Shown: in pieces, positions 1-32,166 of the stretch
How positions within the stretch are numbered: position 1 is the first letter of the stretch
How the letters are laid out: each line of letters opens with the position of its first letter
Assembly: GCA_964365185.1 (NCBI GenBank)
Contig: CAYIOP010000001.1
Location: 34,675-98,674, forward strand
Origin: an uncultured Candidatus Saccharibacteria bacterium
GTDB lineage: Bacteria; Patescibacteriota; Minisyncoccia; UBA6257; 2-01-FULL-56-20
Direction of reading: 5' to 3'
DNA length: 64,000 bases
Position numbers and translations under genes: made by a program
Notes under the pieces: model-generated
The model's input: the letters and a program-made list of their open reading frames with translations, nothing else
Told to the model about the DNA's origin: nothing
Databases searched by the model: none

Positions 1-353
1 TTTTAAAAGAAGTTATCGGTTGCAGACATAAAGAGGAGTGTAATCATACCTGTAGCGGCGCTTTTAAAGTTACTGAATTTGAATTAAATTTTTATAAAGA
101 TTTTAATATTCCCTTGCCTAATCTTTGTTCAAATTGCCGGCATTTTGAACGATCAGAGGAGATGACTCCGATGAAACTTTTTAGCGGGCATTGTAATTGT
201 TTGGGTGAGAAGTCCACCGGCGGAATTTATCAAAATCAGGTCAATCATTTTCACGGCAAAGAGAAATGTCCGAATGAGTTTGAAACGAGTTATAGTCCAG
301 ATCAAGGAAAAATTGTGTATTGCAAGGAATGCTACCAGCAAGAAGTAGCATAA
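1..353 (+). CDS. Cys-rich zinc-ribbon family protein, 3' fragment (5' end lies outside window)
   Basis: The frame is open from nt 3 to the stop at 351-353. The translation GCRHKEECNHTCSGAFKVTEFELNFYKDF.IPLPNLCSNCRHFER...HFHGKEKCPNEFETSYSPDQGKIVYCKECYQQE matches the C-terminal A'-B' zinc-ribbon pair of the 13175..14977 family (LCSNCRHYERL...HCPNEFETTYAP...IIYCEECYQQEII). Confidence 0.6.
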   Translation, partial: LKEVIGCRHKEECNHTCSGAFKVTEFELNFYKDFNIPLPNLCSNCRHFERSEEMTPMKLFSGHCNCLGEKSTGGIYQNQVNHFHGKEKCPNEFETSYSPDQGKIVYCKECYQQEVA

Positions 354-1101: not shown

Positions 1102-2922
1102 ATGCCTAAATTAAGACCAGATGTAGTTTATTTCGCCAGAACGGATTTTAGGAATACTAAGCGGCTTTTTGGAATTAAACGTAAGGATCGTCGGCAACAC
1201 AACTATGTGGTTGGTAAGACCGGAACCGGTAAAACAGCGTTGATTCATAATATGGTGGTTCAGGATATTACCAATGGCGAGGGGGTCTGCGTGGTCGACC
1301 CTCACGGTGAGTTTGTGGAGAGTTTGCTCGCAAAAATCCCGGAAGAGCGGATTGATGATGTTATTTATTTTAATCCGGCGGATATTGACCATCCAATTGG
1401 GTTCAACCCGCTTGAATTGCCAGACCCTAAATACCGACATTTGGCCGCATCGGGGTTGATGGCGATTTTTACGAAAATTTGGTCTAATGTTTGGTCGGCT
1501 CGGATGGAATATATTTTAAACAACGCAATTTTGGCGCTTTTAGAAAACTCTAATTCAACTTTACTTGGGATAAATCGGATTTTAGTGGATAAAGATTTTC
1601 GTCAAAAGATTGTGGCGAATGTTAAAGACCCGGTGGTCAGGGCTTTTTGGATTAATGAATTTGAGGCCTGGAGAGATCAGTTTAGGAATGAGGCCATTGC
1701 TCCGATTCAAAATAAAGTGGGTCAGTTTTTGTCAACGGATTTAATTCGAAACGTGGTGGGGCAGACCAAAAGCACGATTGATGTTTTTGACATTATGAAT
1801 AATCGAAAGATTTTTCTAGTTAATGTTTCCAAAGGTAGAATTGGTGAAGACAATTCCGCGCTTCTGGGGGCGATGTTGATTACTAAAATTCAACTGGCTG
1901 CGATGGAGCGAGTTCGAATTCCGGAAGAGGAGCGGGCTGATTTTTATCTTTACGTGGACGAGTTTCAAAATTTCGCGACCGATTCTTTTGCGGGAATTTT
2001 GTCGGAAGCCAGAAAATACCGATTAAATTTAATTATTGCCCATCAATATGTCGGTCAGTTAGTGACAGATGTTTCAACTAAGGTTAGAGACGCGGTTTTC
2101 GGTAACTGTGGAACAATGATGGTTTTTAGAGTTGGCGCCACTGACGCCGAATTTTTGGAAAAAGAATTTACACCGGAATTTATGATTGAGGATTTGGTAA
2201 ATTTACCCAATTACGCAATTTACCTTAAATTAATGGTGGATGGCGTGACTTCCCGGCCTTTCTCGGCCGCGACTTTACCACCGTTTAAGATTCCAACTTC
2301 AGCCGTCACAATCGAGCGGGTAGTTGATATTTCTCGATTAAATTATACTTTGCCCAAAGAGGAGGTTGAGGAGGCGATAATTAAGTGGAGTGGCAGTATG
2401 GGCGATTCAGATTCTGGCAGTATAGAGAGGAGAGGTGAAAATGTTTTGGCGGCGGGACATAAAGTTCAGGCCACTTGTTCTTCTTGTGGTAAGCGAACTG
2501 AATTAAATTTTATTCCCACTGAGGGCCGGGCGGTTTATTGTAAAGATTGTCTCCAGAAAATTAAATCCGGAGAGATGTCTAGGGTTAAGGTGGGGAAAAT
2601 TAAAGAGTTAAGGCCGTCTGAGAAAGACCCGTCGGATTTGGCGTTTTTGGGCATTGAATTTAAACAATCGAAGCCGGAAGAAAAGAGGGAAGATGGTTTT
2701 GAACAAAAATCTGGACTGGCAGCGCCACCGACAAAAGAAACTTCTGAATTCCACGAAATTTCGCGGTCAACCGAACCAAAGATTTCCTTAAGTGAGCTTA
2801 AACAAGTGGATACAGTGCCGAGAGACAAGAAATCAGACCAAGTTAGTATTGATGAGTTGAGAAAGTCCATCGAACGGGCGCTTGAAAGCCAAAGCGAATC
2901 AAGTCAAGAGGGGAACGAATGA
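1102..2922 (+). CDS. DUF87-type P-loop NTPase (HerA/TraD/VirD4-like) with long low-complexity C-terminal tail ending in a zinc ribbon
   Basis: Walker A is [10 protein letters not shown], followed by a DPHGEF motif, a Walker-B-like [10 protein letters not shown], then AHQ. The C-terminal [25 protein letters not shown] is the B-type zinc ribbon of the Cys-rich family. The stop overlaps the trmD start (ATGA at 2919-2922). Confidence 0.7.
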
Positions 2923-5199: not shown

Positions 5200-5216
5200 G
5201 CCAATTAATTTTATTT

Positions 5217-11407: not shown

Positions 11408-12688
11408 ATGATAACTTTTAAAAAAATAGTTTTAGTTTTGGGAATTTTGGTTCCGGTTTTTTTTCTGGTTAATTTTACGGTGGCGGCGGAGCCAAGCGGG
11501 GTTTCCTTGGAGAGGAGTGAACTTGAGGCGCGAATTAAAGTCCAAAACGAAGAGTTGGAAAAATTGAATCGTCAGTTAGAGGAGACACAAACTAAACTTG
11601 AAGGCACAAAAAACGAGCGGTTAACTCTACAGAAAGAGTTGAGCAATATTAAAAATTCCATTACTCAATTAAATTTAAGCATTAAAACGGATCAAGCTAC
11701 GGTCAATAAGCTGATACTTGAAATTGATTCTTTAAACTTTGATATTCAGGATATTGAGGTCTTGTCGGATTACAAGAAAAATTCGGTGGCAGAACTTCTA
11801 AAAGCCATTAATCGGAATGATCAGGTTAATTTTTTAACAGTATTTTTAAGCGGCGATAGTTTAGCAGATAGCGTTTCTGATCTTCAAGCGCTCTCTAGCA
11901 CCGGATCGCAACTTGGGACTGATATTCAAAATTTAGAGAAATTGCGAGGGGAGAAAGTTAAGAAAGCCACTGAAATTAGCAATAAGAAAGTCGAAATTTC
12001 ACGGCGGAAGGAAGATCTTGAGAGTAAAAAATTTATTATTGAAGACCAAGAGGGTGAGAAACGGTCAATTTTGGAAGAGACCAAAAATAAAGAGAGTGTT
12101 TATCAGAAGGAATTGGATGATTTAAGAAAAAAGCAGGATGAAATTGCCGAGCAGATCTCGAAATTCGAAGAAGAGTTGCGGATTAAATTTGACGTGGGGC
12201 TTTTGCCAACTAAACGCTCGGGTGTTTTTGATTGGCCGGTTAAACTTAAAAAAGATGGCGGCACGGGTATTATCACTCAGCATATGGGTGAGGTCTCCCG
12301 GCTCTATAAGGGTAAGCCGCATAATGGACTGGATATCGGTACACCAGTGGGCACGCCAGTTTTGGCGGCTGAAGACGGGACGGTAATTGCGGTGGATGAT
12401 AATGACCGGAGTCAGTGGAGAAAATATCAGTACGGAAAATATGTTCTGATCCGGCATGAAAATAATCTGACCACTCTTTACGCGCATCTTTCCAGGCAAT
12501 CAGTGGCTAAGGGTCAGACCGTGAAGAGGGGAGAGGTGATAGGTTATTCCGGTAATACCGGTTATTCAACTGGAGCGCATTTACACTTTGGAGTTTATTG
12601 GGCAGCGAGCGTGCTTATGAAGGCGGTGCCACCGGCTTTGGGTTTGGTGCCAGTCGGAGTGGTGGTGAATCCGGAGGATTATCTCTAG
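11408..12688 (+). CDS. M23-family peptidoglycan DD-metalloendopeptidase with N-terminal coiled coil (EnvC-like)
   Basis: Signal/TM segment, a long heptad coiled-coil region, then HNGLDIG...GNTGYSTGAHLHFGV, the M23 HxxxD/HxH motifs. Confidence 0.8.
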   Translation: MITFKKIVLVLGILVPVFFLVNFTVAAEPSGVSLERSELEARIKVQNEELEKLNRQLEETQTKLEGTKNERLTLQKELSNIKNSITQLNLSIKTDQATVNKLILEIDSLNFDIQDIEVLSDYKKNSVAELLKAINRNDQVNFLTVFLSGDSLADSVSDLQALSSTGSQLGTDIQNLEKLRGEKVKKATEISNKKVEISRRKEDLESKKFIIEDQEGEKRSILEETKNKESVYQKELDDLRKKQDEIAEQISKFEEELRIKFDVGLLPTKRSGVFDWPVKLKKDGGTGIITQHMGEVSRLYKGKPHNGLDIGTPVGTPVLAAEDGTVIAVDDNDRSQWRKYQYGKYVLIRHENNLTTLYAHLSRQSVAKGQTVKRGEVIGYSGNTGYSTGAHLHFGVYWAASVLMKAVPPALGLVPVGVVVNPEDYL

Positions 12689-12690
12689 AT

Positions 12691-12721
12691 TAGGTTTTAG
12701 GTTTTAGGTTATAGGTGATAG
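12691..12721. repeat. heptad-periodic TAG repeat: TAG at 12691, 12698, 12705, 12712, 12719 (exact 7-nt spacing)
   Basis: taggttt taggttt taggtta taggtga tag, read directly. It follows the TAG stop of the M23 peptidase gene and places stops in all three frames. Confidence 0.55.
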
Positions 12722-12769
12722 AGATACAATAGTAATACAATGGCGATACAATTGAGATATAATTGAAAA

Positions 12770-13129
12770 ATGAAATTATTGGCGGCTAGTATTTTATTCT
12801 TCTTAATTTTTACGGTTGTGCCGGTTAAGGCGCAAAGTGTGGAATTGATTACTGGTGGGCAGGCGCCGGAGAAGACATTCAACGAAATTGTTAATCCGGT
12901 TATTAATTTTTTCGGTAAGCTATTTAATTTTTTCCAATTAGTCCTTACTCGATTGCTGGATGTTGAGTGGATAAAACATAATTTGCTCTCGGTTTTCGGT
13001 ACAATTAATGATTGGTTTTATAAAATTTTCGGAATGGATATTGGTGAAGTTTTAGCCGCAATCGGAAATATTTTTGTGATTATTTTTAATTGGTTGATTG
13101 CATTTTTTACGAAGTTGTGGCCGTTTTAG
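12770..13129 (+). CDS. hypothetical small secreted/membrane protein
   Basis: 119 aa with an N-terminal signal-like hydrophobic segment and a C-terminal hydrophobic segment. Confidence 0.35.
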   Translation: MKLLAASILFFLIFTVVPVKAQSVELITGGQAPEKTFNEIVNPVINFFGKLFNFFQLVLTRLLDVEWIKHNLLSVFGTINDWFYKIFGMDIGEVLAAIGNIFVIIFNWLIAFFTKLWPF

Positions 13130-13174: not shown

Positions 13175-14977
13175 ATGAATCGGGAAATTCGAAATTGCCA
13201 AAATTGCAAAACTAATTTTGAAATAGACGCTTCGGATTTTAAATTTTATGAAAGGATAAAGGTTCCGCCGCCGACGTGGTGTCCGGAGTGTCGGATAGTT
13301 CGGCGAATGTCGGTTCAGAATCAACGGGCTTTATATAAACGAAAATGTGATTTGTGCGGAAATGAAATGGTAACTTTTTTCTCGCCAGAGGCGCGAGATA
13401 CTGTTTATTGCCAAAAATGTTGGTGGTCGGATAATTGGGACCCGTTTCAATATGGGCTGGAATATGATTTTTCCAAACCGTTTTTCGCTCAATTTAGAGA
13501 ATTATTAGATAGAGTTCCGTGGTCAGCGCTCCAGACAGTTTATACCACGATGGTAAATAGCGAGTATTGCAATATCGCTTCCTATCTAAAGGACTGTTAT
13601 TTAATGTTTAACTCTGATTACAGCGAGGATTGTTATTATGGAACTTATGTGGAACGGAGTAAGCGTTCATTTGATCTTTATATGGCTGACTACGCGGAGA
13701 TTTGTTACGAGAGCAATAATTTAGAGAAATGTTATCACGTTTTTTATTCGAGTAACTGCAATAATTGCATCGATGTTTATTTTTCAAGAAATTTGCGAGG
13801 TTGCTCGAAGTGTTTTGGTTGCGTTAATTTATCCAATAAACAGTATTACATTTTTAATGAGCCCTATTCCAAAGAAGAGTATTTTAGAAAATTGAAACAA
13901 TTCGATTTGGGGTCAAGAAAGACGGTTTTAGAATTACGTCAGCAGATGGCCGACTTTAATCTTAAATTTCCAAGAAAATTTGCGGAAGGATTTAAGAATT
14001 TAAACGTCTCGGGAGATTATGTGTTTAATTCCAAAAATACTTATTTGAGTTATGAAATGGCCGAATCCGAAGATTGTAAATTTTGCCAATTTCTTTTTAT
14101 TGAAACCGCGAAGAATTGTCAAGATGTGACGATGTGGGGTGGGGGACTTACCAACTCTTATGATTCAATGGGTATTGGCGGAGGAGCGGACCAGATTAAA
14201 TTTTCTTTTGATTGTTGGGCAAATCTTATGAATATTGAGTACTGTTTCGATCTTTTGGTTATGAACTCAGACCTTTTTGGGTGCAGCCGATTGAAAAATA
14301 AAAAATTCTGTATTCTAAATAGGCAGTATTCTGAGAAAGAATATAATGATTTAATTCCGAAAATTAAAAAACAAATGGATGAAGTGCCTTATATCGATAA
14401 GAAGGGCCGAGTATATAAATATGGAGAGTTTTTCCCGCCTGAAATCCACTCTTTTGCTTATAATGAAACAATCGCACAGGAATATTTTCCATTGACTAAG
14501 GAAGAAGCTATAGACCAGGGTTTTCGTTGGAAAGATGCTCAAGATAAGAATTATCAAATTACGATTTCAAGCGACCAGTTGGCGGATAATATTAAGGAAG
14601 TTGAGGATGGAATTTTAGGCCAGATAATTGGCTGCGAACATTTTGGTAAGTGCAAAGATCAGTGCTCAGTGGCGTTTAAAATTACTCCTCGAGAATTGGA
14701 ATTTTATAGGGCCGAGAATATCCCAGTGCCTCGATTATGTTCGAATTGCCGGCATTACGAGCGATTAAGGAATAATAATCCTATGAGATTTTATCATCGC
14801 AGGTGTGGGTGTGAGGGGTTGCAAAGCGTAAAGAGCAAGGCGCAAAATAGTTATCAAAACGTGGCTCAACATTTTCATGGCGGCGATCATTGCCCCAATG
14901 AATTTGAAACAACTTACGCGCCGGAGAGAAGAGAAATTATTTATTGCGAGGAATGCTATCAACAAGAAATAATATAG
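13175..14977 (+). CDS. Cys-rich zinc-ribbon family protein (pseudo-symmetric A-B-core-A'-B')
   Basis: N-terminus CQNCKTNFEIDASDFKFYERIKVPPPTWCPECR (A), then KCDLCGNEMVTFFSPEARDTVYCQKC (B). The core has repeated C..C.NC and CFGCVNLSNKQYYIFNEPYSKEEY units. The C-terminus repeats A' (ITPRELEFYRAENIPVPRLCSNCR) and B' (HCPNEFETTYAPERREIIYCEECYQQE). Confidence 0.6.
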   Translation: MNREIRNCQNCKTNFEIDASDFKFYERIKVPPPTWCPECRIVRRMSVQNQRALYKRKCDLCGNEMVTFFSPEARDTVYCQKCWWSDNWDPFQYGLEYDFSKPFFAQFRELLDRVPWSALQTVYTTMVNSEYCNIASYLKDCYLMFNSDYSEDCYYGTYVERSKRSFDLYMADYAEICYESNNLEKCYHVFYSSNCNNCIDVYFSRNLRGCSKCFGCVNLSNKQYYIFNEPYSKEEYFRKLKQFDLGSRKTVLELRQQMADFNLKFPRKFAEGFKNLNVSGDYVFNSKNTYLSYEMAESEDCKFCQFLFIETAKNCQDVTMWGGGLTNSYDSMGIGGGADQIKFSFDCWANLMNIEYCFDLLVMNSDLFGCSRLKNKKFCILNRQYSEKEYNDLIPKIKKQMDEVPYIDKKGRVYKYGEFFPPEIHSFAYNETIAQEYFPLTKEEAIDQGFRWKDAQDKNYQITISSDQLADNIKEVEDGILGQIIGCEHFGKCKDQCSVAFKITPRELEFYRAENIPVPRLCSNCRHYERLRNNNPMRFYHRRCGCEGLQSVKSKAQNSYQNVAQHFHGGDHCPNEFETTYAPERREIIYCEECYQQEII

Positions 14978-15146: not shown

Positions 15147-16541
15147 ATGACTAAAAAAGAGCACTCCCCTAACTTAAATAGAGTTCATTTTGTTGGTATT
15201 GGCGGCATAGGAATGAGTGCTCTGGTACGTTGGTTTTTAGCTAAAAAATGGCTTGTATCGGGCTCTGATCTAGTAGAAAGCCAGATTACTGATAGTTTAA
15301 GAAAAGTTGGCGTAAGGGTCAAAATTGGCCATAAAAGAGTTAATTTACCTCAAAATGGCCTTAAGATGGTTGTTTATAGCCAAGCCATTCACCATGACAA
15401 CCCAGAATTGCTTGAGGCGCGAAAATTGGGCATTATTCCTCTTTCATATGGGGAGGCAGTCGGGTGTCTTACAAAGATTTATAAAACGATTGCCATTGCC
15501 GGTAGTCATGGCAAAAGTACGACTACGGCTTTAGTTGGAATTGTTCTCTCGGCGGCGAAGTTCGACCCGAATGTGATTTTAGGCACTAATCTTAAAGAAT
15601 TTCACGGAACTAATTTTAGGCAAGGACGATCAAGGTGGCTGGTTTTGGAGGCGGATGAGTGGAAGGCCTCTTTCTTAAATTATTTTCCTTTTATAACCGT
15701 GGTTACTAATATCGATAAAGAACATCTGGATTATTACAAAACCTTTGGCAACGTCAAAAAGACATTTCTTAAATTTTTAGGTAATACCGAAGATGGCGGA
15801 TTTTTGATTTTGAATCGCGACGACAAAATTTTATTTTCGCTCCAGTCCTCTATTTTAAAATTGACAAGACAGAAAAAATTGAAAGTTCATTGGTATTCAG
15901 TGAGTAAAACTCAAAGTGAAAAACGAAAAGCGAAAAGTTTAGGGAAGATTTTAAAAATTTCGGGCGAGCATAATATTTCAAATGCGATGGCGGCTTTCAC
16001 TGTGGCTAAAGTTTTGAGAATTAAAGAGTCGATTGCAACTGGGGCACTCGCTAATTTTCAAGGAGCGTGGAGAAGAATGGAGTATAAGGGCAAATGGCAA
16101 ATAGCAAATAGCAAATCAATTTTAGTGTTTGACGATTACGCTCATCATCCCACGGAGATTCGAGCAACACTTCGGGCTTTTCATGAAAAATTTTCGACTT
16201 CTCCGATTGTTTGTGTTTATCAGCCGCATCAGGCCGAACGACTTAAGAATTTATTTTCGGAGTTTGTGGACTCATTTTTAGATGCGCATGTTTTAATTTT
16301 TTTGCCGGTTTATGAAGTGGCGGGCCGCGATCGGGTGAATCGCGGTTTTACCTCAGAACGATTGGCCAAAGCGATTGCCAAGAAATATTCTCGAAAGCAC
16401 GTGTATTATCTAAAAAATCCAAAGCTTTTGAAGGGATTTTTGAGGCATATCGTGGAGCATTTTGGCTTTACCCACTCCCCTATTTTGGTGATGATGGGCG
16501 CGGGAGATATTGTTAAATATACTCCTCTCTTGTTATCATAG
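15147..16541 (+). CDS. murC: UDP-N-acetylmuramate--L-alanine ligase MurC
   Basis: VHFVGIGGIGMSAL (Mur ligase N-terminal Rossmann loop), IAGSHGKSTTT (P-loop) and HHPTE. Two in-frame heptad-repeat inserts give KRKAKS and KGKWQIANSKS. Confidence 0.8.
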   Translation: MTKKEHSPNLNRVHFVGIGGIGMSALVRWFLAKKWLVSGSDLVESQITDSLRKVGVRVKIGHKRVNLPQNGLKMVVYSQAIHHDNPELLEARKLGIIPLSYGEAVGCLTKIYKTIAIAGSHGKSTTTALVGIVLSAAKFDPNVILGTNLKEFHGTNFRQGRSRWLVLEADEWKASFLNYFPFITVVTNIDKEHLDYYKTFGNVKKTFLKFLGNTEDGGFLILNRDDKILFSLQSSILKLTRQKKLKVHWYSVSKTQSEKRKAKSLGKILKISGEHNISNAMAAFTVAKVLRIKESIATGALANFQGAWRRMEYKGKWQIANSKSILVFDDYAHHPTEIRATLRAFHEKFSTSPIVCVYQPHQAERLKNLFSEFVDSFLDAHVLIFLPVYEVAGRDRVNRGFTSERLAKAIAKKYSRKHVYYLKNPKLLKGFLRHIVEHFGFTHSPILVMMGAGDIVKYTPLLLS

Positions 16542-22500: not shown

Positions 22501-24207
22501 CTATATAATTTCTTTTAAGTAGCATTCCTTGCATAGAATTTCTTTGTAGTCCTCTAGGGTATAGCTGCTTTGGAATTTACTTTGGCATTTAAAACAGGTT
22601 CGTTCCACTAAAGTTAAATCTTTCACCCAGTCCTGGAATTTTTTTTCAATTCGGCAAAAGGGACATTCGCGCGGCAGAGGTAGATTCATTTGTTTTAGGA
22701 AGTCGAGTTCGGACTGAATGATTTTGAAGCCGCGGTCGCATTTAGCGCAACCAATAATTTCATTTAAAATATCGCGTGGAGCGTCTTTGATATGATCCGG
22801 AAGATGTTCCGATTTAATTGAGATTTGATGATTTTTGGGTTCGCTTTCTTTCCATGCGTAGCCGGCATTTAGTGTTTGTTCTTTTGTAAGCGGAAAAAAA
22901 TTATTGGCCATAGTTTCATTATAGGCCCAAGGACTCATCTCGATTGGGAAAAACTCGCCGTATTTATAAATTTGTCCGCGGCTGTTTTTATAAGGCATCT
23001 CATTCATATGATTGATAATTTTTTCACGGAGTTGCCAATATTCCTTTTCCGGATATTTTTTGTTGAAAATCACAAATTTTCCTTTCTTGAGCGATGAACA
23101 GGCAAAGTAGTTAGCGCCGCCAAGCACGGTATTGCAGTATTCGGCGTCGATTAAATTAATTCCACTTTGAGTGGAAAACTTTACTCGATGAGCTCCTTCT
23201 CCGGTTACGCTTACTTCGTAGCAGAGTTCCATATTGTTGCCCCAACTGGTGATATCATAGCAATTCTTAATGGGTGCAACGGCGAGCATAAATAAATATT
23301 TAGAATCAATCGCTCCGGCGACCTCGTAGCACTCCTTACAATTTTTGGACTCAAAAACATAATTGCCGGTACAGTTCGTCACAAATTCCGAACAATATGG
23401 CAGAGGCGGATGTTTTTGCCAATTTTCTTCACTCAATTTTTGAGCCAGTTTATAGTTTTGATACGAGCCCAAGTCGAATTCTTTTAATTTTTTAGCATAT
23501 TCCTCTGGGGTATATTTCTGATTGAAAAATACATACTTTTGATTTCTAAGATTGGTCGAGCCAAAACAATTTTGGCAATTTGCGGAGTCCCGAAGAAAAT
23601 GGCAGTTAAGCGATTCAGTAACCTGCTTACGCAGGCCAACGCACCGGTTATTTTTGAAAGAATGTTCGCAGTCGTAGCAGAGTTCGGAGTGACTAATAAG
23701 TGATGAATCGAGCGTATTTTTGGAGTTAGTGACGTAGAAGCCATAGCTGCAATCTTCACTGAAGTCGGCATGAAACAGGAGGTAGCAATTTTTGAGATTG
23801 CCAACATGATTGTTGTATTCGGAGTTGATCATCGTGGGCAAGGCATTCGAGAGTCCGATGGTCGGTACTTCCAGCCAAAATTTCTTTAATTGCTCAAAGA
23901 AGGGTTGATTAAAGTCATAGTCGCGGCTATATTCATAAGGGTCCCAGTCATCAGACCACCAACATTTAGGGCAGTAGATTTTATAAAGGGACTCTGGAGA
24001 AAACATGGAAAGAGAGTTTTTGCCGCAAAGATCGCATTTCCGCTTGTAAATTTTTAAAAGATTAAAAAAAGCCAGGCGCCTTTGAAAGCGGCACTTGGGA
24101 CAAAAAGTCGGTGGCGGGACTTCAATTTTTTGGTAGAAATTAAAGTCCTCGGGTTCGATGGTGAATTCAGATTTGCAATCTTGACAAATCTTTGTTTCTG
24201 AATTCAT
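22501..24207 (-). CDS. Cys-rich zinc-ribbon family protein (tandem array member 1)
   Basis: MNSETKICQDCKSEFTIEPEDFNFYQKIEVPPPTFCPKCRFQRR at the N-terminus. Internal NCQNCFGSTNLRNQKYVFFNQKYTPEEY, and a C-terminal CPFCR...YKEILCKECYLKEII zinc-ribbon pair. Confidence 0.6.
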   Translation of the reverse strand: MNSETKICQDCKSEFTIEPEDFNFYQKIEVPPPTFCPKCRFQRRLAFFNLLKIYKRKCDLCGKNSLSMFSPESLYKIYCPKCWWSDDWDPYEYSRDYDFNQPFFEQLKKFWLEVPTIGLSNALPTMINSEYNNHVGNLKNCYLLFHADFSEDCSYGFYVTNSKNTLDSSLISHSELCYDCEHSFKNNRCVGLRKQVTESLNCHFLRDSANCQNCFGSTNLRNQKYVFFNQKYTPEEYAKKLKEFDLGSYQNYKLAQKLSEENWQKHPPLPYCSEFVTNCTGNYVFESKNCKECYEVAGAIDSKYLFMLAVAPIKNCYDITSWGNNMELCYEVSVTGEGAHRVKFSTQSGINLIDAEYCNTVLGGANYFACSSLKKGKFVIFNKKYPEKEYWQLREKIINHMNEMPYKNSRGQIYKYGEFFPIEMSPWAYNETMANNFFPLTKEQTLNAGYAWKESEPKNHQISIKSEHLPDHIKDAPRDILNEIIGCAKCDRGFKIIQSELDFLKQMNLPLPRECPFCRIEKKFQDWVKDLTLVERTCFKCQSKFQSSYTLEDYKEILCKECYLKEII

Positions 24208-24316
24208 TTTATTTTTTCCGAAATAAATTTGAGAGGTGATTTTTAAGTAGGGTCCAAAAAGCCCCTACGATAAGCTTAATAGTTCTAATGCGTATTTTGA
24301 TACTTGGATTCATGGA

Positions 24317-26107
24317 TTATTGAATTTCACCTTGATAGCATTCGGAACAGTAAATTATTTCAGGATCATTGTTTGAGTAGCTGGTCATAAATTTATTTTG
24401 ACACTTTGTTTCGCCATGAAGATGGGCGGTTCGATTTTCGTATATTATCTCTCCAGTTGAGTTTTCTGAAGTTCTTCCGCCACACATACAAAATTTTTCA
24501 GATAGATTATAGCGTTCTCGGCCGTTATTTCTGATATGGCGTCGGCATTCGGGGCAAAGTCGCGGAAGGGCGACGTTAATCATTCGGTAGAACTCCAGTT
24601 CCTTGGGAACGATTTTGAAAGCTCTTTTGCATTGGTGGGCACAATCTCCTCTATGAGAGCAGTTGATAATTTTTTCTAATATTTTGTCGTCCGTGTTTTT
24701 TATGTTATCCGGCAGATCTTCGGGATTTATGGTGTTCGCGTAGGTTTTTAGTTCCGCGTCTCGCCACCAAAGTTTTTGTTTTTGAGCTTTTTCTTTGGTG
24801 ATCGGGAAATAGCGCTGAGCTAAGGAGTTATTGTAGGCGCAGGTTGAAAATTCCGGCGGGAAGAATTCGCCGTACTTGTAAATGTGGCCAAGTTCGTTGA
24901 TGTAGGGTGTTTGCTTCATTTGTTCTATAATCTTCGGCACTATTTTTTCATATTCTTCCTTCGTGTATTGTTTATTTAGAATGCAGTACTTTTTTTTTCT
25001 TAACCCAACGCAGCCGAAAAGATGTTCGCATGATTGGCAAGTATCGCAGTATTGTAAATCTAAGCTTTCTCTGGCGCCGTTGGTGAATCTGATGTTTTGG
25101 GAATTAAACGCGCTGCTGGCGTAGATAAGCTCGCATTTTTCGCCTCCAGCGAAGACGTCGTAGCTGTCTTTGATTCTTCGGCCGCAGATTAGGAGATATT
25201 TGCTGTTTTCCGCGCCGTCTCTAACTTCGAAGCTATGCTGACAGTTTTTGGCGTTTTCGATGTCGTTGCCGGTGCAACCAACGGTGTTTTTTTCCGCCAT
25301 ATACTTTCTTGGGATTTTCGATTTAAGTTTTTCGAATTCTTTTTTGGCATCTTTTAAAGTTTTATGACTACCGAGATTTAGCTCCGACATTTTTTTTTCA
25401 TATTCTTTTTTGGAGTAGGGTTGATTGAAAATATGATATTGTTTGTTTCGTAAACCGACGCAGCCGAAACAGTTGGAGCAATTTCGGCAGTCGTAGAGAA
25501 ATTTTGAATCTAAACATTCATTGCATTGTTCAGAAAATAAAAGATTGAAACAGCGAGTACAAGAACAGGATTCATACATGTTTTCGCAAAAAATTAATAT
25601 TGAGACGTCAATGCATTTGCGGCTTACGGCAGGCGTGTCTGAATACATGCAGTCTTCAGAGAGATAGGCTCCGGAGACGAGGTAACAATTTTTTGAGTTT
25701 GAGGCCCAGGTGCAGTAATCGCAGTTTATTGAGTTAATTGAACGTACATTCGCTAAAGGAACAGAGTTTAAGAGTTTTAGAAATTGCTCGAAAAAGGGCT
25801 TTGAAAAATCGTAGTCGAGGCCATATTCGGTCGGATCCCAGGCATCGGACCACCAATAGTCGGAATCGTATATTTTGAGTCCTCTTTCCGAAGGATATCT
25901 AGAAATGAGTTCTTCGCTGTGGCCGGGTGCCTGGCATTTGACGCGGAAGAGCGCACCTTCATTCGACCAAATGAGTTTATGCATCATTCGGCACTTAGGA
26001 CAAAAAGTCGGCGGTGGGACTTTAATTTTTTCGTAGAAAGCGAAGTCATCGGGTTCGATGGTGAAAGTTGATTTGCAGTTTTGGCAAATTCGCGAATCTT
26101 GAGTCAT
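24317..26107 (-). CDS. Cys-rich zinc-ribbon family protein (tandem array member 2)
   Basis: MTQDSRICQNCKSTFTIEPDDFAFYEKIKVPPPTFCPKCR at the N-terminus. Internal CFGCVGLRNKQYHIFNQPYSKKEY and CEHLFGCVGLRKKKYCILNKQYTKEEY, and a C-terminal CPECR...IIYCSECYQGEIQ. Confidence 0.6.
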   Translation of the reverse strand: MTQDSRICQNCKSTFTIEPDDFAFYEKIKVPPPTFCPKCRMMHKLIWSNEGALFRVKCQAPGHSEELISRYPSERGLKIYDSDYWWSDAWDPTEYGLDYDFSKPFFEQFLKLLNSVPLANVRSINSINCDYCTWASNSKNCYLVSGAYLSEDCMYSDTPAVSRKCIDVSILIFCENMYESCSCTRCFNLLFSEQCNECLDSKFLYDCRNCSNCFGCVGLRNKQYHIFNQPYSKKEYEKKMSELNLGSHKTLKDAKKEFEKLKSKIPRKYMAEKNTVGCTGNDIENAKNCQHSFEVRDGAENSKYLLICGRRIKDSYDVFAGGEKCELIYASSAFNSQNIRFTNGARESLDLQYCDTCQSCEHLFGCVGLRKKKYCILNKQYTKEEYEKIVPKIIEQMKQTPYINELGHIYKYGEFFPPEFSTCAYNNSLAQRYFPITKEKAQKQKLWWRDAELKTYANTINPEDLPDNIKNTDDKILEKIINCSHRGDCAHQCKRAFKIVPKELEFYRMINVALPRLCPECRRHIRNNGRERYNLSEKFCMCGGRTSENSTGEIIYENRTAHLHGETKCQNKFMTSYSNNDPEIIYCSECYQGEIQ

Positions 26108-26130
26108 AGATGATTTTTGTTTTTTTGATA

Positions 26131-26162
26131 CTATTCTCTAATTCGCGCGAATTAGAGAATAG
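26131..26162. repeat. 32-nt perfect palindrome between array members 2 and 3
   Basis: ctattctctaattcgc|gcgaattagagaatag, read directly. It is preceded on the + strand by a T-run. Confidence 0.5.
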
Positions 26163-26181
26163 TTGGATAGAAGCGCCTTAA

Positions 26182-27834
26182 TTATGATATTTCGGCTTGA
26201 TAACATTCAACGCAGGAAATTTTTTGAAAAGTAAGTTTGGGTGAATAGTAATGTTCAATCTCTTTTTGGCAATAGACACATTTTCCTTTTTGCGGCTCCA
26301 TCATTAGAGTTAAGGGGTGAAAGCGGTTTAGGGTTCGCCAGTCAAAATGTTGTCTTGGTAGAGGGATTTCATGCTCGCGGTAAAACTGAAGTTCTGACGG
26401 GGCAATATTATAGCTTAATTTGGTTTCTGGACAGATGATGCGTTGTTTAGTAATGTCGTCTTTAACATTATCTATTTTATCCGGTAGGTCTTCCGACCTA
26501 ACTCCAACGTATTCCGGATTTTTAGGTTCTTCCCATTTAGCTCCGAATTTTAAAGCGCCCTCTTTTGTTTCGGGAAACATAATTTGAGCGAGAGAATAGT
26601 TGTATCCAGCATAGGCGGCGCTAAGTGGAAAAAATTTTCCCCACTCCCCTCTTTGCTTCATATCTGTTTCTATCTTTTTCTTTAGCGTTTCGTATTCTTG
26701 TTGGCTATATTGTTTGTTTAAAATGCAATATTTTTTCTTTCTTAATCCCACGCAGCCAAAACAATATTCGCACTCTTCGCAGTTATCCAGATAAGCGCTG
26801 TAGCGACAATAGCCGGTATAGAGATTACAGAAATTTTCATATCCCCATTGGTCCAGGGAACTCCGGGCGCATTTTTCCGATGGGCAGCCCACCGCATCAA
26901 TGAGGTCTTTACCGTCTATTCCCCTTAAAGAATAGCGGCAATTTTCCGATCTTTCCAAAAAATAACAGCTATGGCAGTTTTTGTTTTCCAATAAAAAGTT
27001 GCCGCTGGAATTTGAAATTTGGACATTAAAATGCGCGCGGTGAATCGTGTCTTTTTGAAGATGGCTCCAAAATTCTTTTTTTAGTTTTTCGACAGCGGAA
27101 TAAGAATTGAGTTCAAAACTTTTTATTTTTTTAAAATATTCTTCTTTTGAATAAGGTTGGTTTAAAATATAATATTGTTTATTTCTCAAATTCCAGGACA
27201 TAAAACAGTTTTGACAGTTGCGGCAGTCATAGAGAAAAGCGCCTTCTATACAGTCACGTGAGTTGAAGCAGTGTCGCAGTTTGAATCCCTTAAAACAATA
27301 GAGGCAGTCATAACATTTTTCTAGTTCAAAACAATAAGTTATATCCAGAGAATTTTTCGAGGCGAAAGCCCTGTAGCCATAACTGATATCCTCGATTTTC
27401 CAAGCTGACCTGGTGAGGTAGCAATTTTTTGATTCCCAAACATCGTCGGTCCAGTCACAATTGGTGTTTCTAAGACCGGTTTGATGAGGATGAGGAACTT
27501 TGGCTTGAAGTTCCATTAATTGTTCAATAAAAGGCCGGGAGGCGTCATAATCGCGGCCGTAGGCTAAAGAATCCCAGGCGTCTGAGACAAATTCTTCCCG
27601 TTCGTAGATTGGAAAAGGCACGCTCTCGGGTAAGACGGTAATGAGCCGTTTACCGCTTAGGGCGGAATTGGTGATTCGAAAGCGGCCAAAAATCCAAAAG
27701 GACAAAAGATATTTCCATCGACAGAGTGGGCATTGGTCTGGCGTCGGCAAATCGAATCTACTATAGAATTCTTTGTCGATATCTTCTATTTGAAATTCTT
27801 TTTGGCAGTTTCGGCACGTTTTGTTTTCAGTCAT
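26182..27834 (-). CDS. Cys-rich zinc-ribbon family protein (tandem array member 3)
   Basis: Start placed at M13 (MTENKTCRNCQKEFQIEDIDKEFYSRFDLPTPDQCPLCR) to avoid a 34-nt overlap with the upstream gene. Internal CQNCFMSWNLRNKQYYILNQPYSKEEY and CEYCFGCVGLRKKKYCILNKQYSQQEY, and a C-terminal ISCVECYQAEIS. Confidence 0.55.
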   Translation of the reverse strand: MTENKTCRNCQKEFQIEDIDKEFYSRFDLPTPDQCPLCRWKYLLSFWIFGRFRITNSALSGKRLITVLPESVPFPIYEREEFVSDAWDSLAYGRDYDASRPFIEQLMELQAKVPHPHQTGLRNTNCDWTDDVWESKNCYLTRSAWKIEDISYGYRAFASKNSLDITYCFELEKCYDCLYCFKGFKLRHCFNSRDCIEGAFLYDCRNCQNCFMSWNLRNKQYYILNQPYSKEEYFKKIKSFELNSYSAVEKLKKEFWSHLQKDTIHRAHFNVQISNSSGNFLLENKNCHSCYFLERSENCRYSLRGIDGKDLIDAVGCPSEKCARSSLDQWGYENFCNLYTGYCRYSAYLDNCEECEYCFGCVGLRKKKYCILNKQYSQQEYETLKKKIETDMKQRGEWGKFFPLSAAYAGYNYSLAQIMFPETKEGALKFGAKWEEPKNPEYVGVRSEDLPDKIDNVKDDITKQRIICPETKLSYNIAPSELQFYREHEIPLPRQHFDWRTLNRFHPLTLMMEPQKGKCVYCQKEIEHYYSPKLTFQKISCVECYQAEIS

Positions 27835-27836
27835 AT

Positions 27837-29504
27837 TTAGATAACTTTTTGTTGGTAGCAACTTTCGCAAAAAATAATTTCGGGTTGGTCAGGAGCGAAA
27901 TTTGTTTTAATTGGTTTTTGACAGTTCGCGCAATTGCGATCAAATATTTTAATTGGTCCTCTTCTATTTATCCTAGCTTGGTGGCGACAGTAAAAGCAAT
28001 GCCGCGGGAGAGGTATGGACATGAGTTTATAAAACTGGAATTCAGCTTGAATGATTTTGTAGTTTCGTTTACAAGAAACGCAGGCGAGAATTTCGTCTAT
28101 AATTTTTTCTGAAATTTCGCTAATATCATCTGGAATCTTTTCTGATTTCAGAGTTTCTTTTCCGGTTGTTATTTGAAGATTATCTTCCCAGCGATAACCT
28201 TGGGCAAGGGCTTCGTCTTTAGTGAGCGGCAAGTTGTCTTGCGCAATAGTTTCGTTATAGGCGAAGAGATTAAGAGCTGGTGGGAAGAAGAGTCCATAAT
28301 CCCCCGCCTGAATAAGTTCCTGCTTGATTGTGTTCGTAATTTGCCGATATTCTTTTTCGTCGTAGCGTTTATTTAGAATTGAAAATTTGGAGTTTTTTAT
28401 GCCATCGCAACCGAAACATTCTTGGCTATTACGCGTGGCGAAGCAATAAGCGACATCTTGAGCGTTTTCCACCCACCAAGAGCTGATGACTCTGGCGCTA
28501 TAACCAGTGGCAACTGCTTCCAACAACAATTCGGAGTTGCGGCCATGGCCGATAATGTCGTAGGTGTCTTTTGCTAATTTAACCGAGAAAGAGTAGTTGA
28601 CGTTTTCACAAAAGGCTAATTCAAATGAGGAGCGACAATTTTTTGATTCAAAAATGTAGTCGCCGGTTACAGCCACACTTTTTAGATTGTTGTTTTCGCG
28701 GCGTGGGAATTTAAGAGAAAATTCATCAAAGTTTTTCGCGAATTCTTTTATGGCGCTATAGCTGCCGATAATTGGTTCGACTTTCTTTTTCCACTCTTCT
28801 TTAGAGAGCGGTTCATTTAGAAAATGGTATTTTTTATGGCGAAGATTAACACAACCGAAGCAATTTTGAAGACCGACGCAATTTAAGAGAAATGAGGAAT
28901 CGAGGCATTCGGAAACATTTTGAGACCAAGAGACGCCTTTGCTGTTGTGAATATTTACTCCTTCGTAAATGTTTTCTGATTTATCAATATTGTAGCCGTC
29001 AAAGACATTGCGGCACTGGAGCATTCCGCGAGAATAGGCGCAGTTTTCATTATTGGGTCCGGAGTTGGCGACGAGATAGCAGTCCTTGTTGCCGCCAGCA
29101 AAGTTTTCATACGGACTGTTTACGCTTTTCATTACGTCGCTGCGGTAAAGTGCACATTTAGGAACTGAATGGGTTAATTCTTTGAATTGATCGAAAAAAG
29201 GCCGATTTGAATTATAAACTCGGCCGTAAGAAAAAGAATCCCATTTATCGCTATGCCAGCAATCGGGACAATATACCGTGAAAGTTGAGGAAGGGCTATA
29301 CATTGAAATAATCGGCTCATGGCAGAGATCACAGGAACGATTATATAAAACAAATTCGTTTCGAAATTGGGCCTTTCTTTTAAAGCGGCATTCAGGACAT
29401 AAAATAGGCGCCGGAACGCCCATTTTTTTATAGAAAGTGAAGTCGTCGGGTTCGATGGTGAACCCATTTTTGCAATTCTGACAAATTCTTGAATCTTGGA
29501 TCAT
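27837..29504 (-). CDS. Cys-rich zinc-ribbon family protein (tandem array member 4)
   Basis: MIQDSRICQNCKNGFTIEPDDFTFYKKMGVPAPILCPECRFKRK at the N-terminus. Internal NCFGCVNLRHKKYHFLNEPLSKEEW, and a C-terminal CFYCRHQ...IIFCESCYQQKVI. Confidence 0.6.
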   Translation of the reverse strand: MIQDSRICQNCKNGFTIEPDDFTFYKKMGVPAPILCPECRFKRKAQFRNEFVLYNRSCDLCHEPIISMYSPSSTFTVYCPDCWHSDKWDSFSYGRVYNSNRPFFDQFKELTHSVPKCALYRSDVMKSVNSPYENFAGGNKDCYLVANSGPNNENCAYSRGMLQCRNVFDGYNIDKSENIYEGVNIHNSKGVSWSQNVSECLDSSFLLNCVGLQNCFGCVNLRHKKYHFLNEPLSKEEWKKKVEPIIGSYSAIKEFAKNFDEFSLKFPRRENNNLKSVAVTGDYIFESKNCRSSFELAFCENVNYSFSVKLAKDTYDIIGHGRNSELLLEAVATGYSARVISSWWVENAQDVAYCFATRNSQECFGCDGIKNSKFSILNKRYDEKEYRQITNTIKQELIQAGDYGLFFPPALNLFAYNETIAQDNLPLTKDEALAQGYRWEDNLQITTGKETLKSEKIPDDISEISEKIIDEILACVSCKRNYKIIQAEFQFYKLMSIPLPRHCFYCRHQARINRRGPIKIFDRNCANCQKPIKTNFAPDQPEIIFCESCYQQKVI

Positions 29505-30093: not shown

Positions 30094-30097
30094 GATT

Positions 30098-32154: not shown

Positions 32155-32166
32155 AAATAATTTGAA

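What the first reader, a model, noticed from the sequence alone, without database searches (positions are those of the whole stretch)
13175..14977. Pseudo-symmetric domain organisation of the Cys-rich proteins (A-B-core-A'-B') and a solo copy in the cell-wall gene cluster
The N-terminal ribbon pair is A (C..C...F.I...DF.FY..I.VP.PT.CP.CR) followed by B (C.LCG......F.PE.RD..YC..CW). It recurs at the C-terminus as A' (F.I.P.E.EFYR...IP.PR.CS.CR) and B' (HCP.EFET.Y.P....IIYC.ECYQ). The central region itself contains two tandem CFGC...NK.Y...N..YS.EEY units. Such internal duplication hints at a clamp-like or dimer-mimicking fold. This solo copy sits between the M23 peptidase and murC inside the ftsW-murG-murC neighbourhood.
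Basis: seen in the sequence. Interest (0 to 1): 0.55.

Follow-up and report, generated by a model that had tools for sequence, protein, structure and literature searches.

The report
Zinc-ribbon-capped double beta-solenoid protein family
This gene encodes one member of a very large, unnamed protein family of the ultra-small Patescibacteria, built from two nested internal duplications (four zinc ribbons around two cysteine-ladder beta-solenoids), whose genes usually sit in tandem arrays next to an orphan VirD4-like ATPase of unknown role.

Summary
ORF 13175-14977 (+) encodes a 600-aa soluble protein with 35 Cys and 8 His. The window holds four more full paralogs and one cut copy. Profile-profile tests confirm both duplications. 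The N-terminal ribbon pair matches the C-terminal pair (E=4e-19). The central repeat is two ~145-aa units (E=5e-28), not just two 24-aa motifs.

AlphaFold gives a confident model (pLDDT 88, pTM 0.89) with no solved or viral structural relative. Coevolution and the predicted strand pattern show 12-residue coils with Cys/Ser at every third position, topologically like the beetle antifreeze protein. Ribbon cysteines are lost as complete sets, as metal sites are. Solenoid cysteines are swapped one at a time for serine, so they are packing residues.

The family has over 5,000 clusters at 50% identity, all in Patescibacteria, with no Pfam model. The M23-murC setting recurs only in a few genomes. The widespread partner is a soluble VirD4/TrwB-like ATPase:
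- 39 of 45 ATPase genes lie within two genes of a family copy, 38 of those 39 on the same strand.
- 29 of 38 loci anchored on the ATPase contain a family copy.
- One ATPase type carries the same CxxC-x17-CxxC ribbon.

Function is inferred, not shown: probably an adaptor or cargo of that ATPase.

The parts
13175..13318 (+). Ribbon A (aa 1-48), CxxC-x24-CxxC with ligands C8, C11, C36, C39. Net basic. Resembles Pfam zf_Tbcl (PF13451).
   Evidence: Ligands are 95-97% conserved in 435 homologs. A vs A' hhalign E=8e-15. 4 of 31 members hit PF13451 below threshold.
13319..13450 (+). Ribbon B (aa 49-92), CxxC-x17-CxxC with ligands C58, C61, C79, C82.
   Evidence: Sub-threshold hits to PF23477 zf_Tbcl_2 (21.7 bits, cut-off 27) and TIGR04272. 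The ligand set is all-or-none across the family, phi 0.97-0.99, and complete in 241 of 435. Strongest DCA pairs are 61-79 and 61-82.
13451..13531 (+). Linker with a helix (aa 93-119) that couples to the C-terminal cap of solenoid 2.
   Evidence: AF2 helix 103-113. DCA pairs 99-400, 97-397, 104-381, 116-358.
13532..13870 (+). Beta-solenoid 1 (aa 120-232). 12-residue coils, inward Cys/Ser at every third residue, C-terminal cap C210-x2-CFGC-x4-NK-x-Y-x3-N-x2-YSKEEY.
   Evidence: core1 vs core2 hhalign E=5e-28. Many |i-j|=12 couplings. Beta bridges every 6 residues in the AF2 model. Coil consensus C-Y-x-S-x-N-C-x-x-C-x-D.
13871..13969 (+). Helical connector h1 (aa 233-265).
   Evidence: AF2 helices 233-242 and 248-262. 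DCA pairs 247-471 and 248-520 link it to the mid region and to A'.
13970..14329 (+). Beta-solenoid 2 (aa 266-385), homologous to solenoid 1. Cap LFGC370-x4-NK-x-F-C379-ILN-x2-YSEKEY.
   Evidence: hhalign. Couplings with period 12-14. C370 is 96% and C379 90% conserved.
14330..14623 (+). Helix h2 plus the mid region (aa 386-483). Includes one of the most conserved stretches of the family, PYxDxxGRxYKYGEFFPPExSPFAYNETxAQxYFPLTK (aa 405-445).
   Evidence: Entropy 1.48 bits for 405-445 against 2.5-2.6 for the solenoid bodies. Eight DCA pairs link it to ribbon A.
14624..14779 (+). Ribbon A' (aa 484-535). Ligands C487, C497, C522, C525. Optional extra pair H489/C493. Net basic.
   Evidence: hhalign vs A. 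C497-C525 phi 0.92. H489/C493 are present in 53% of members, phi 0.96.
14780..14977 (+). Ribbon B' (aa 536-600, plus the stop codon). Ligands C544, C573, C591, C594. Its first knuckle is split by an insert that carries C546, H566 and H568.
   Evidence: Ligands are 98-99% conserved. The insert set is present in 72% of members, phi 0.93-0.97. Short paralogs have a plain CxxC-x17-CxxC.
22501..29504 (-). Tandem array of four paralogs: 22501-24207 (568 aa), 24317-26107 (596 aa), 26182-27870 (562 aa), 27837-29504 (555 aa).
   Evidence: tblastn E=1e-67 to 9e-155. ORFs. Alignment.
3..347 (+). C-terminal part of a sixth copy, cut by the window edge.
   Evidence: tblastn: 50% identity to aa 481-599, E=2e-33.
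30098..31564 (-). Type-1 soluble VirD4/TrwB-like ATPase (488 aa) at the head of the array.
   Evidence: Pfam TrwB_AAD_bind, T4SS-DNA_transf and TraG-D_C. 74-86% identical homologs across lineages. Recurrent co-directional neighbour of the family.
1102..2922 (+). Type-2 VirD4/TrwB-like ATPase (606 aa) with a C-terminal CxxC-x17-CxxC ribbon. It follows the cut copy at the window start.
   Evidence: Pfam TrwB_AAD_bind plus zf_Tbcl_2, E=5.8e-12. Tail ribbon vs ribbon B hhalign Prob 96.4, E=1.3e-9.
31567..33552 (-). Conserved upstream module: a 195-aa membrane protein (31567-32154) and a DUF8128-type protein (32170-33552).
   Evidence: They cluster with the same neighbours in 7 and 11 loci, in the order DUF8128 - membrane protein - ATPase - family copies.
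11408..13129 (+). Immediate upstream neighbours of the solo copy: M23 peptidase (11408-12688) and a 119-aa ORF with no Pfam match (12770-13129).
   Evidence: Pfam Peptidase_M23 E=3e-31. The same order is seen in L002 and L046.
15147..16541 (+). murC, the downstream neighbour.
   Evidence: The three Mur ligase Pfam domains.

Best explanation
The gene encodes a soluble cytoplasmic protein built as ribbon A, ribbon B, beta-solenoid 1, beta-solenoid 2, a conserved mid region, ribbon A' and ribbon B'.

Shown here:
- Two separate internal duplications made this layout: AB to A'B', and core1 to core2.
- The four ribbons carry Cys4 sites with zinc-type spacing. Their ligands are kept or lost as whole sets.
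- The two solenoids have 12-residue coils. The inward positions, every third residue, are filled by Cys or Ser that are exchanged one at a time, so they are packing residues and not metal ligands.
- The conserved parts are ribbon A, the two solenoid caps, residues 405-445 and ribbon B'. The solenoid bodies vary, both across the family and among the paralogs in this window.
- Family genes form co-directional tandem arrays. The arrays are headed or bracketed by two paralogous soluble VirD4/TrwB-like ATPases, one of which carries the same CxxC-x17-CxxC ribbon.

Inferred:
- The conserved ribbon and mid-region face is a docking unit for that ATPase or its membrane partners (DUF8128 and a small membrane protein).
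- The variable solenoid surfaces give each paralog its own specificity.
- The family would then act as exchangeable adaptors, or as cargo, of a VirD4-like translocase that Patescibacteria have put to another use.
- The copy at 13175 is a long-form member that has become separated from the array. It lies in a housekeeping block about 10 kb downstream of the type-2 ATPase.
For: Architecture:
- hhalign E=4e-19 for N vs C and 5e-28 for core1 vs core2, against controls of 0.009-0.45.
- AF2 pLDDT 88.2, pTM 0.89.
- |i-j|=12 couplings and the interdomain coupling map.
- Coil consensus.

Metal sites:
- Ligand conservation and all-or-none loss.
- CxxC-x17-CxxC proteins of M. mazei bind zinc by ICP-MS (PMC12704099).
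- No TM segment: highest 19-residue hydropathy is 0.87.

Conserved versus variable parts.

Linkage to the ATPase:
- 30 of 82 family-anchored genome loci hold the ATPase within 10 kb; by a second count, 27 of 83 hold it within two genes.
- 39 of 45 ATPase genes lie within 2 genes of a family copy, and 38 of those 39 are on the same strand.
- Reciprocal test on metagenome loci of at least 8 kb: 29 of 38 anchored on close ATPase homologs contain a family copy, against 1 of 17 anchored on distant homologs. Fisher p=9e-7, not corrected for phylogeny.
- Background: about two VirD4 homologs per Patescibacteria genome (5,713 in 2,918), and only 148 are near virB4 (PMC12102498).
- Shared ribbon: ATPase tail vs ribbon B, Prob 96.4, E=1.3e-9.
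Against: - No experiment bears on the function.
- Gene adjacency is not interaction. Many loci come from related lineages, so the counts are not independent.
- About two thirds of family-anchored loci show no ATPase within 10 kb. The copy in question is itself about 10 kb from the nearest one.
- The family also recurs next to dnaK/dnaJ and ftsW-murC blocks. That could simply mean constitutive housekeeping expression.
- The domain packing comes from coevolution at modest depth (Meff about 420), not from coordinates.
- The t4cp homolog of the one Patescibacterium with a fitness screen was reported as non-essential (PMC12102498).
Confidence: 0.45

Rival explanations
1. A nucleic-acid-binding factor that works on its own, for example in transcription, translation or DNA handling. 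The basic ribbons A and A' would grip DNA or RNA and the solenoid would be a spacer. The ATPase neighbourhood would be incidental or only indirectly related.
For: Ribbons A and A' carry net charge +2.0 and +4.7 on average, while the rest of the protein is acidic. One member is labelled 'Zn ribbon nucleic-acid-binding protein' by JGI. Zinc ribbons often bind nucleic acid (general knowledge). The genes sit among housekeeping genes such as trmD, truB, rpoB, gltX and dnaK.
Against: The protein as a whole is acidic, net -5.6. No known nucleic-acid-binding family matched. Five to nine divergent paralogs per locus would be unusual for a core factor. The strong, strand-consistent linkage to one ATPase subfamily is left unexplained.
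Confidence: 0.17
2. A cell-wall or cell-division scaffold, a cytoskeletal beta-helix in the manner of bactofilin or MinC, as the M23-X-murC position suggests.
Confidence: 0.1
3. A translocated effector: diversified paralogs are handed by the coupling-protein-like ATPase to the Patescibacteria type IV secretion system and delivered to the host cell.
For: The genes form arrays of divergent paralogs next to VirD4-like genes, with variable surfaces on a conserved frame. Patescibacteria carry a type IV secretion system that seems specialised for something other than conjugation (PMC12102498).
Against: Only 148 of 5,713 Patescibacteria T4CP genes lie near virB4. These ATPases have no N-terminal membrane domain in the window sequences. 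A fold pinned by four or more zinc sites would have to be unfolded for transit. The C-terminus is a conserved ribbon, not a typical disordered signal. The embedding in housekeeping operons points to a cell-internal role.
Confidence: 0.1
4. A metal-buffering or redox protein: the 35 cysteines would store zinc or carry Fe-S clusters, for example through C210-x2-C213-x2-C216.
For: The Cys content is high at 5.8%. There is a CxxCxxC string at 210-216, conserved 85-97%. A CutA1-like gene lies between the ATPase and the first family copy in 8 loci.
Against: Solenoid cysteines are replaced one at a time, mainly by Ser, with co-occurrence phi of 0.43 or less. Window paralogs keep only two of the three CxxCxxC cysteines. 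The second solenoid keeps only one equivalent. No ferredoxin or radical-SAM family matched.
Confidence: 0.05

Closest known systems
Tenebrio molitor antifreeze protein (TmAFP, PDB 1ezg), a 12-residue-coil Cys-ladder beta-helix
CxxC-x17-CxxC domain (TIGR04272, Pfam PF23477 zf_Tbcl_2), e.g. small zinc proteins of Methanosarcina mazei
   Same: Ribbons B and B' have exactly this spacing and the [FY]xPxxxRxhYCxxC signature. There are sub-threshold HMM hits here and in 8 of 31 members. The same domain scores above threshold in the neighbouring ATPase tail. Zinc binding was shown for the archaeal proteins (PMC12704099).
   Different: Here it is one module of a 600-aa protein and occurs twice. The B copy has lost its ligands in about 44% of members. 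The first knuckle of B' is split by a 20-30-residue insert with its own C/H/H set.
Pfam PF13451 zf_Tbcl (probable treble-clef domain) and small phage 'zinc-ribbon domain proteins'
   Same: Ribbons A and A' have CxxC...F.I...[DE]..FY...P.P..C..CR, and 4 of 31 members hit PF13451 at E<0.01. Small phage zinc-ribbon proteins superpose on a ribbon at rmsd 0.6-0.7 over 42-44 columns.
   Different: The matches are below Pfam's cut-off and absent for this protein. The BFVD E-values are not significant for the whole chain. The function of PF13451 is itself unknown.
Other beta-solenoids: left-handed beta-helix acyltransferases (LpxA, LpxD, GlmU), bactofilin, curli CsgA, pentapeptide-repeat proteins
Substrate receptors and adaptors of type IV coupling proteins (VirD4, TraD, TrwB systems)
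   Same: The family genes sit directly beside VirD4/TrwB-like ATPase genes, co-directional, as relaxosome and adaptor genes do in conjugative systems (general knowledge of T4CP loci).
   Different: No relaxase, virB4 or other secretion genes were noticed in these loci. The ATPases lack a membrane anchor. The family has no similarity to any known T4CP partner. The relation is inferred from gene order only.

Membership tests
CxxC-x17-CxxC domain (TIGR04272 / PF23477 zf_Tbcl_2) - ribbons B and B' | Two CxxC knuckles separated by 17 residues | tested here: met
   C58-x2-C61-x17-C79-x2-C82. In B', C573-x17-C591-x2-C594. Short paralogs show a plain CxxC-x17-CxxC.
CxxC-x17-CxxC domain (TIGR04272 / PF23477 zf_Tbcl_2) - ribbons B and B' | HMM score at or above the curated cut-off | tested here: not met
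   PF23477 scores 21.7 bits against a cut-off of 27. TIGR04272 scores 20.2 against 36. 8 of 31 family members hit at E<0.01, all sub-threshold. The profile-level link to the ATPase tail, which does pass, is E=1.3e-9.
CxxC-x17-CxxC domain (TIGR04272 / PF23477 zf_Tbcl_2) - ribbons B and B' | Binds one zinc ion through the four cysteines | not testable with these tools
   Indirect only: the ligands are lost all-or-none, and the archaeal domain binds Zn (PMC12704099).
PF13451 zf_Tbcl - ribbons A and A' | HMM match above the gathering score | tested here: not met
   No hit for this protein at E up to 10. 4 of 31 members hit at E<0.01, best 7e-4.
TmAFP-type 12-residue beta-helix | 12-residue coil with inward small residues at every third position | tested here: met
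   More than 20 of the top 120 DCA pairs have |i-j|=12. AF2 shows beta bridges every 6 residues. Cys/Ser columns lie at spacing 3.
TmAFP-type 12-residue beta-helix | Intra-coil disulfide pairs (Cys i / i+6) that are co-conserved | tested here: not met
   Co-occurrence of solenoid Cys pairs is phi 0.43 or less. Cys is replaced singly by Ser.
TmAFP-type 12-residue beta-helix | Flat TxT ice-binding ladder | tested here: not met
   The coil consensus C-Y-x-S-x-N-C-x-x-C-x-D has no TxT.
TmAFP-type 12-residue beta-helix | Significant structural superposition | tested here: inconclusive
Left-handed beta-helix (hexapeptide-repeat) acyltransferases | 18-residue triangular coil with the hexapeptide signature, and a significant fold match | tested here: not met
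Bactofilin / MinC C-terminal beta-helix | Pfam match or a significant fold match | tested here: not met
4Fe-4S ferredoxin-type or radical-SAM cluster proteins | A conserved, co-occurring Cys triad or tetrad with the family signature | tested here: not met
   C210/C213/C216 are not all kept in the window paralogs. There is no family hit. Co-occurrence of the core Cys is weak.
Known anti-phage defence proteins (PADLOC) and phage proteins | HMM or tblastn match | tested here: not met
   No PADLOC family for two paralogs. No tblastn hit in 50,697 phage records.

The most novel reading that the evidence does not exclude
The thousands of 'orphan' VirD4-like ATPases of Patescibacteria, together with DUF8128 and a small membrane protein, form a lineage-specific translocation machine. 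The zinc-ribbon/double-solenoid proteins would be its exchangeable specificity subunits. A conserved ribbon and mid-region face would dock on the ATPase, possibly through the shared CxxC-x17-CxxC ribbon. The variable solenoid surfaces of the 5-9 paralogs would each select a different DNA or protein substrate.
Probability: 0.25. Interest if true: 0.8.

Novelty: new variant of a known kind. Interest (0 to 1): 0.6.

Why it matters
Patescibacteria are a large share of bacterial diversity and have tiny genomes. This window alone spends about 10 kb on six copies of one uncharacterised protein, and related genomes carry up to nine in a row. The family has no Pfam model, no name and no solved relative, so its architecture is new information. 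That architecture is four zinc ribbons from a nested duplication plus two antifreeze-like Cys/Ser-ladder solenoids in a cytoplasmic protein.

A recent survey found 5,713 VirD4-like genes in 2,918 Patescibacteria genomes, almost all away from virB4, and left their role open (PMC12102498). The tight, strand-consistent linkage found here gives those ATPases a concrete candidate partner. That makes the question testable by co-purification, co-folding or genetics.

Tried and rejected
- Sequence families: Pfam, NCBIfam, PADLOC and PDB sequence searches gave only sub-threshold ribbon hits.
- The AFDB library was not available, so annotated AlphaFold relatives could not be checked.
- Model coordinates are not exposed, so ribbon packing could not be read directly. 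I replaced this with a mean-field DCA on 435 sequences.
- A single fifth zinc site bridging the two inserts (H489/C493 with C546/H566/H568) was considered and dropped. The two sets are only loosely co-present (phi 0.38) and show no direct coupling.
- Zinc or disulfide ladders inside the solenoid were considered and rejected because co-occurrence is weak and Cys is replaced singly by Ser.
- Promoter and terminator scans around the gene did not exceed the shuffled expectation.
- Four literature searches found no description of the family.
- Cluster look-up gave no source names or accessions.
Full report
**1. What is there**

ORF 13175-14977 (+) encodes a 600-aa protein with 35 Cys and 8 His. Homologs align from the first residues, so the start codon is right. 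No 19-residue window exceeds a Kyte-Doolittle mean of 0.87, so there is no membrane segment or signal peptide.

The window holds four more full-length paralogs in tandem on the minus strand: 22501-24207, 24317-26107, 26182-27870 and 27837-29504, at 30-41% identity. A sixth copy is cut by the window start at 3-347.

- M23 peptidase at 11408-12688.
- A 119-aa ORF at 12770-13129.
- murC at 15147-16541.
- ftsW, murG and gltX upstream.

**2. The internal repeats are real and larger than described**

I sliced a 31-sequence family alignment (A1) and compared the slices as profiles.

| Comparison | Result |
|---|---|
| N(1-92) vs C(480-600) | Prob 99.1, E=4.1e-19, 80 columns |
| A vs A' | E=8e-15 |
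| B vs B' | E=4.5e-8 |
| Six unrelated pairings (controls) | E=0.009-0.45 |
| core1(93-250) vs core2(251-400) | Prob 99.8, E=5e-28, 136 columns |

They are not adjacent units.

A single-sequence check agrees. Residues 9-86 of this protein hit the C-terminus of the cut paralog at E=2.5e-5.

The order AB-core-core-A'B' is neither a tandem copy of one unit nor a mirror image. It needs two separate duplications.

**3. Ribbons**

The spacings are:
- A: C8-x2-C11-x24-C36-x2-C39.
- A': C497-x24-C522-x2-C525, with C487 as the first ligand.
- B: C58-x2-C61-x17-C79-x2-C82.
- B': C544...C573-x17-C591-x2-C594.

Conservation in 435 near-full-length homologs:
- A ligands are kept in 95-97%.
- B' ligands are kept in 98-99%.
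- A' ligands are kept in 84-99%.
- B has C58 in 81% and C61/C79/C82 in only 56-57%, lost strictly together (phi 0.97-0.99). The full set is present in 241 members, only C58 remains in 110, and none remain in 78.

All-or-none loss is the behaviour of a true metal site.

B and B' match the CxxC-x17-CxxC domain (TIGR04272, PF23477) below threshold. Members of that domain from Methanosarcina mazei bind zinc by ICP-MS (PMC12704099). A and A' resemble PF13451, again below threshold.

Long forms, including this copy, carry two optional ligand sets:
- H489/C493, present in 53%, phi 0.96.
- C546/H566/H568, present in 72%, phi 0.93-0.97. This set sits in an insert that splits the first knuckle of B'.

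The two sets are only loosely co-present and are not coupled to each other. They may form one or two extra sites, and this is unresolved.

The cysteine tally for this protein is 16 in the four canonical sites, 2 in the optional sets and 17 in the solenoids.

**4. Solenoids**

AlphaFold2 with a 116-sequence alignment gives pLDDT 88.2 and pTM 0.89. Beta bridges recur every six residues through 154-214, and the second repeat has short strands.

A mean-field DCA (Meff about 422) is dominated by |i-j|=12 pairs through 125-227 and by 12-14 pairs through 279-377. The coils are therefore 12 residues long. Columns rich in Cys lie three residues apart. The coil consensus is C-Y-x-S-x-N-C-x-x-C-x-D.

Apart from C141, C210, C213, C216, C370 and C379 (83-97% conserved), these cysteines are kept in only 30-70% of members. 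They are replaced mainly by Ser and co-occur weakly (phi 0.43 or less). They are inward packing residues, not ligand sets or obligate disulfide pairs.

**5. Domain packing**

Coordinates are not exposed, so I used the coupling map.
- Ribbon A couples to the mid region 416-440 (8 pairs) and to solenoid 2, residues 303-330 (5 pairs).
- The linker helix couples to the cap of solenoid 2 and to the following helix.
- Residues 462-480 couple to A' (14 pairs).
- The helix after solenoid 1 couples to residue 471 and to residue 520 in A'.
- Solenoid 1 couples to A' (5 pairs).
- The two solenoids couple at 130-279, 146-306 and 147-307.
- Direct couplings between the N and C ribbon pairs are few and scattered (5 pairs).

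The ribbon pairs therefore seem to dock on different parts of one compact body rather than on each other. A pseudo-dimeric body is plausible, but its geometry is not settled.

**6. Family and distribution**

A word-indexed search found more than 7,400 clusters at 90% identity. The named ones are all 'hypothetical protein' from Patescibacteria, and almost none has a Pfam domain. An exhaustive profile search found 5,385 clusters at 50% identity with E of 1e-3 or better, and 2,261 with E of 1e-30 or better. Nearly all of the best 150 are 550-600 aa and full length.

A genome scan returned 79 loci. All but one come from MAGs labelled as Patescibacteria lineages or as unclassified bacteria, and one carries a Gammaproteobacteria label. 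The window's sequence also occurs on a Hainich groundwater contig. There are no phage or defence-system matches.

**7. Genomic context**

With my own ORF calls and a family HMM, 225 family ORFs lie in the 84 loci held at that point plus the window. About 50 of these hold two or more copies, and some hold up to nine. Arrays are the rule and solo copies the exception.

Clustering the neighbours shows that the commonest is a soluble VirD4/TrwB-like ATPase, present in 30 of 82 loci.
- Of 45 such genes, 39 lie within two genes of a family copy.
- 38 of those 39 are on the same strand.

The recurring order is secD/F, a sigma70_r4/HARE-HTH protein, DUF8128, a small membrane protein, the ATPase, sometimes CutA1, several family copies, and a second ATPase. 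The window shows exactly this order on its minus strand from 35903 to 22501. At its start it has a family copy, one opposite-strand ORF, the type-2 ATPase and trmD.

There are two ATPase types:
- Type 1 is about 488 aa and 74-86% identical across lineages.
- Type 2 is 600-830 aa and ends in a CxxC-x17-CxxC ribbon. That ribbon matches ribbon B at Prob 96.4, E=1.3e-9.

The reciprocal test used 80 metagenome loci anchored on the ATPase. Among loci of at least 8 kb, 29 of 38 with close homologs (52% identity or more) contain a family copy, against 1 of 17 in the set of distant homologs. The one exception, L146, is itself a cut close homolog (79% identity). Fisher p=9e-7, uncorrected for phylogeny.

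For scale, a published survey counts about two VirD4 homologs per Patescibacteria genome (5,713 in 2,918). Only 148 lie near virB4, and their role is left open (PMC12102498). By my own estimate for a ~1 Mb genome, that gives only a few percent chance of one falling within 10 kb of a random gene.

Other recurrent settings:
- ATPase, two family copies and a second ATPase inserted between dnaK and dnaJ (8 loci).
- Positions around ftsW-murG-gltX-M23-murC (8 loci), including this copy.

The orthologue in the closest genome, 67% identical, is fully syntenic.

**8. Conserved and variable parts**

Mean column entropy across the family:

| Part | Entropy (bits) |
|---|---|
| Solenoid 2 cap | 1.32 |
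| Solenoid 1 cap | 1.62 |
| B' | 1.44 |
| Residues 405-445 | 1.48 |
| A | 1.56 |
| Solenoid bodies | 2.5-2.6 |

Among the window's paralogs, identity is 48-54% in the caps, residues 405-445 and ribbon A, 42% in B', and 26-30% in the solenoid bodies. A conserved frame with variable surfaces, multiplied in tandem, is the pattern of a family of specificity modules.

**9. Interpretation**

The architecture, the zinc-type sites and the gene linkage are shown. The function is inferred.

I think these proteins most likely work with the VirD4-like ATPase as exchangeable adaptors or as cargo. The conserved ribbon and mid-region face would be the docking unit, and the solenoid surfaces would give specificity.

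Rivals:
- An autonomous nucleic-acid-binding factor. The basic ribbons A and A' favour it.
- A division or cell-wall scaffold. Only the local context and weak fold matches favour it.
- A secreted effector.
- A metal or redox protein. The substitution pattern of the solenoid cysteines argues against it.

**10. Verdict**

The structural reading is partly supported. The 'cell-wall cluster' framing is incidental.

The family is not described in the libraries or papers searched. Its parts are of known kinds, zinc ribbons and a beta-solenoid, but the combination and the partnership with the orphan ATPases are new.

Noticed in passing
window 1102-2922 (+) and 30098-31564 (-): Two paralogous soluble VirD4/TrwB-like ATPases, 42% identical. 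The shorter type is 74-86% identical across distant Patescibacteria lineages. The longer type ends in a CxxC-x17-CxxC ribbon followed by a 'KIKSGE'-like motif.
   Followed up: yes
L019, L024, L031, L062, L064, L070, L080, L083: In eight loci the block ATPase - family copies - ATPase is inserted, co-directionally, between dnaK and dnaJ, which are normally adjacent.
   Followed up: partly
window 31567-33552 (-); L003 3522-5707: A DUF8128-type protein and a small membrane protein of about 170-195 aa precede the type-1 ATPase in 7-11 loci. They may be its membrane anchor. Neither has a known function.
   Followed up: partly
window 29791-30174 (-); e.g. L007 6454-6801: The slot between the ATPase and the first family copy holds a DUF5674 gene in the window. 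In eight other loci it holds a CutA1-like (divalent-ion tolerance) gene.
   Followed up: partly
window 26182-27870 (-) and 24317-26107 (-): Two array paralogs have lost ribbon ligands. The first lacks the Cys sets of B and A'. The second keeps only C58 of B. Both stay full length and alignable.
   Followed up: partly
window 16548-17318 (+): A 256-aa PD-(D/E)XK nuclease-like gene directly after murC. It is a conserved neighbour in related genomes (cluster c29).
   Followed up: no
window 12770-13129 (+): A 119-aa ORF with a hydrophobic N-terminus and no Pfam match lies between the M23 peptidase and the solo copy. It is conserved at the same place in L002 and L046.
   Followed up: no
window 3772-6083 (+): A ComEC-like competence gene followed by a separate metallo-beta-lactamase-fold gene, as in the syntenic relative L002.
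   Followed up: no
whole window: GC skew is positive in nearly every 2-kb bin, and the cumulative skew rises almost monotonically whatever the gene strand.
   Followed up: no
L050 (contig CAYJLM010000079.1): One locus with two family copies comes from a MAG labelled 'uncultured Gammaproteobacteria', unlike the other genome loci. This is probably a binning or labelling error.
   Followed up: no
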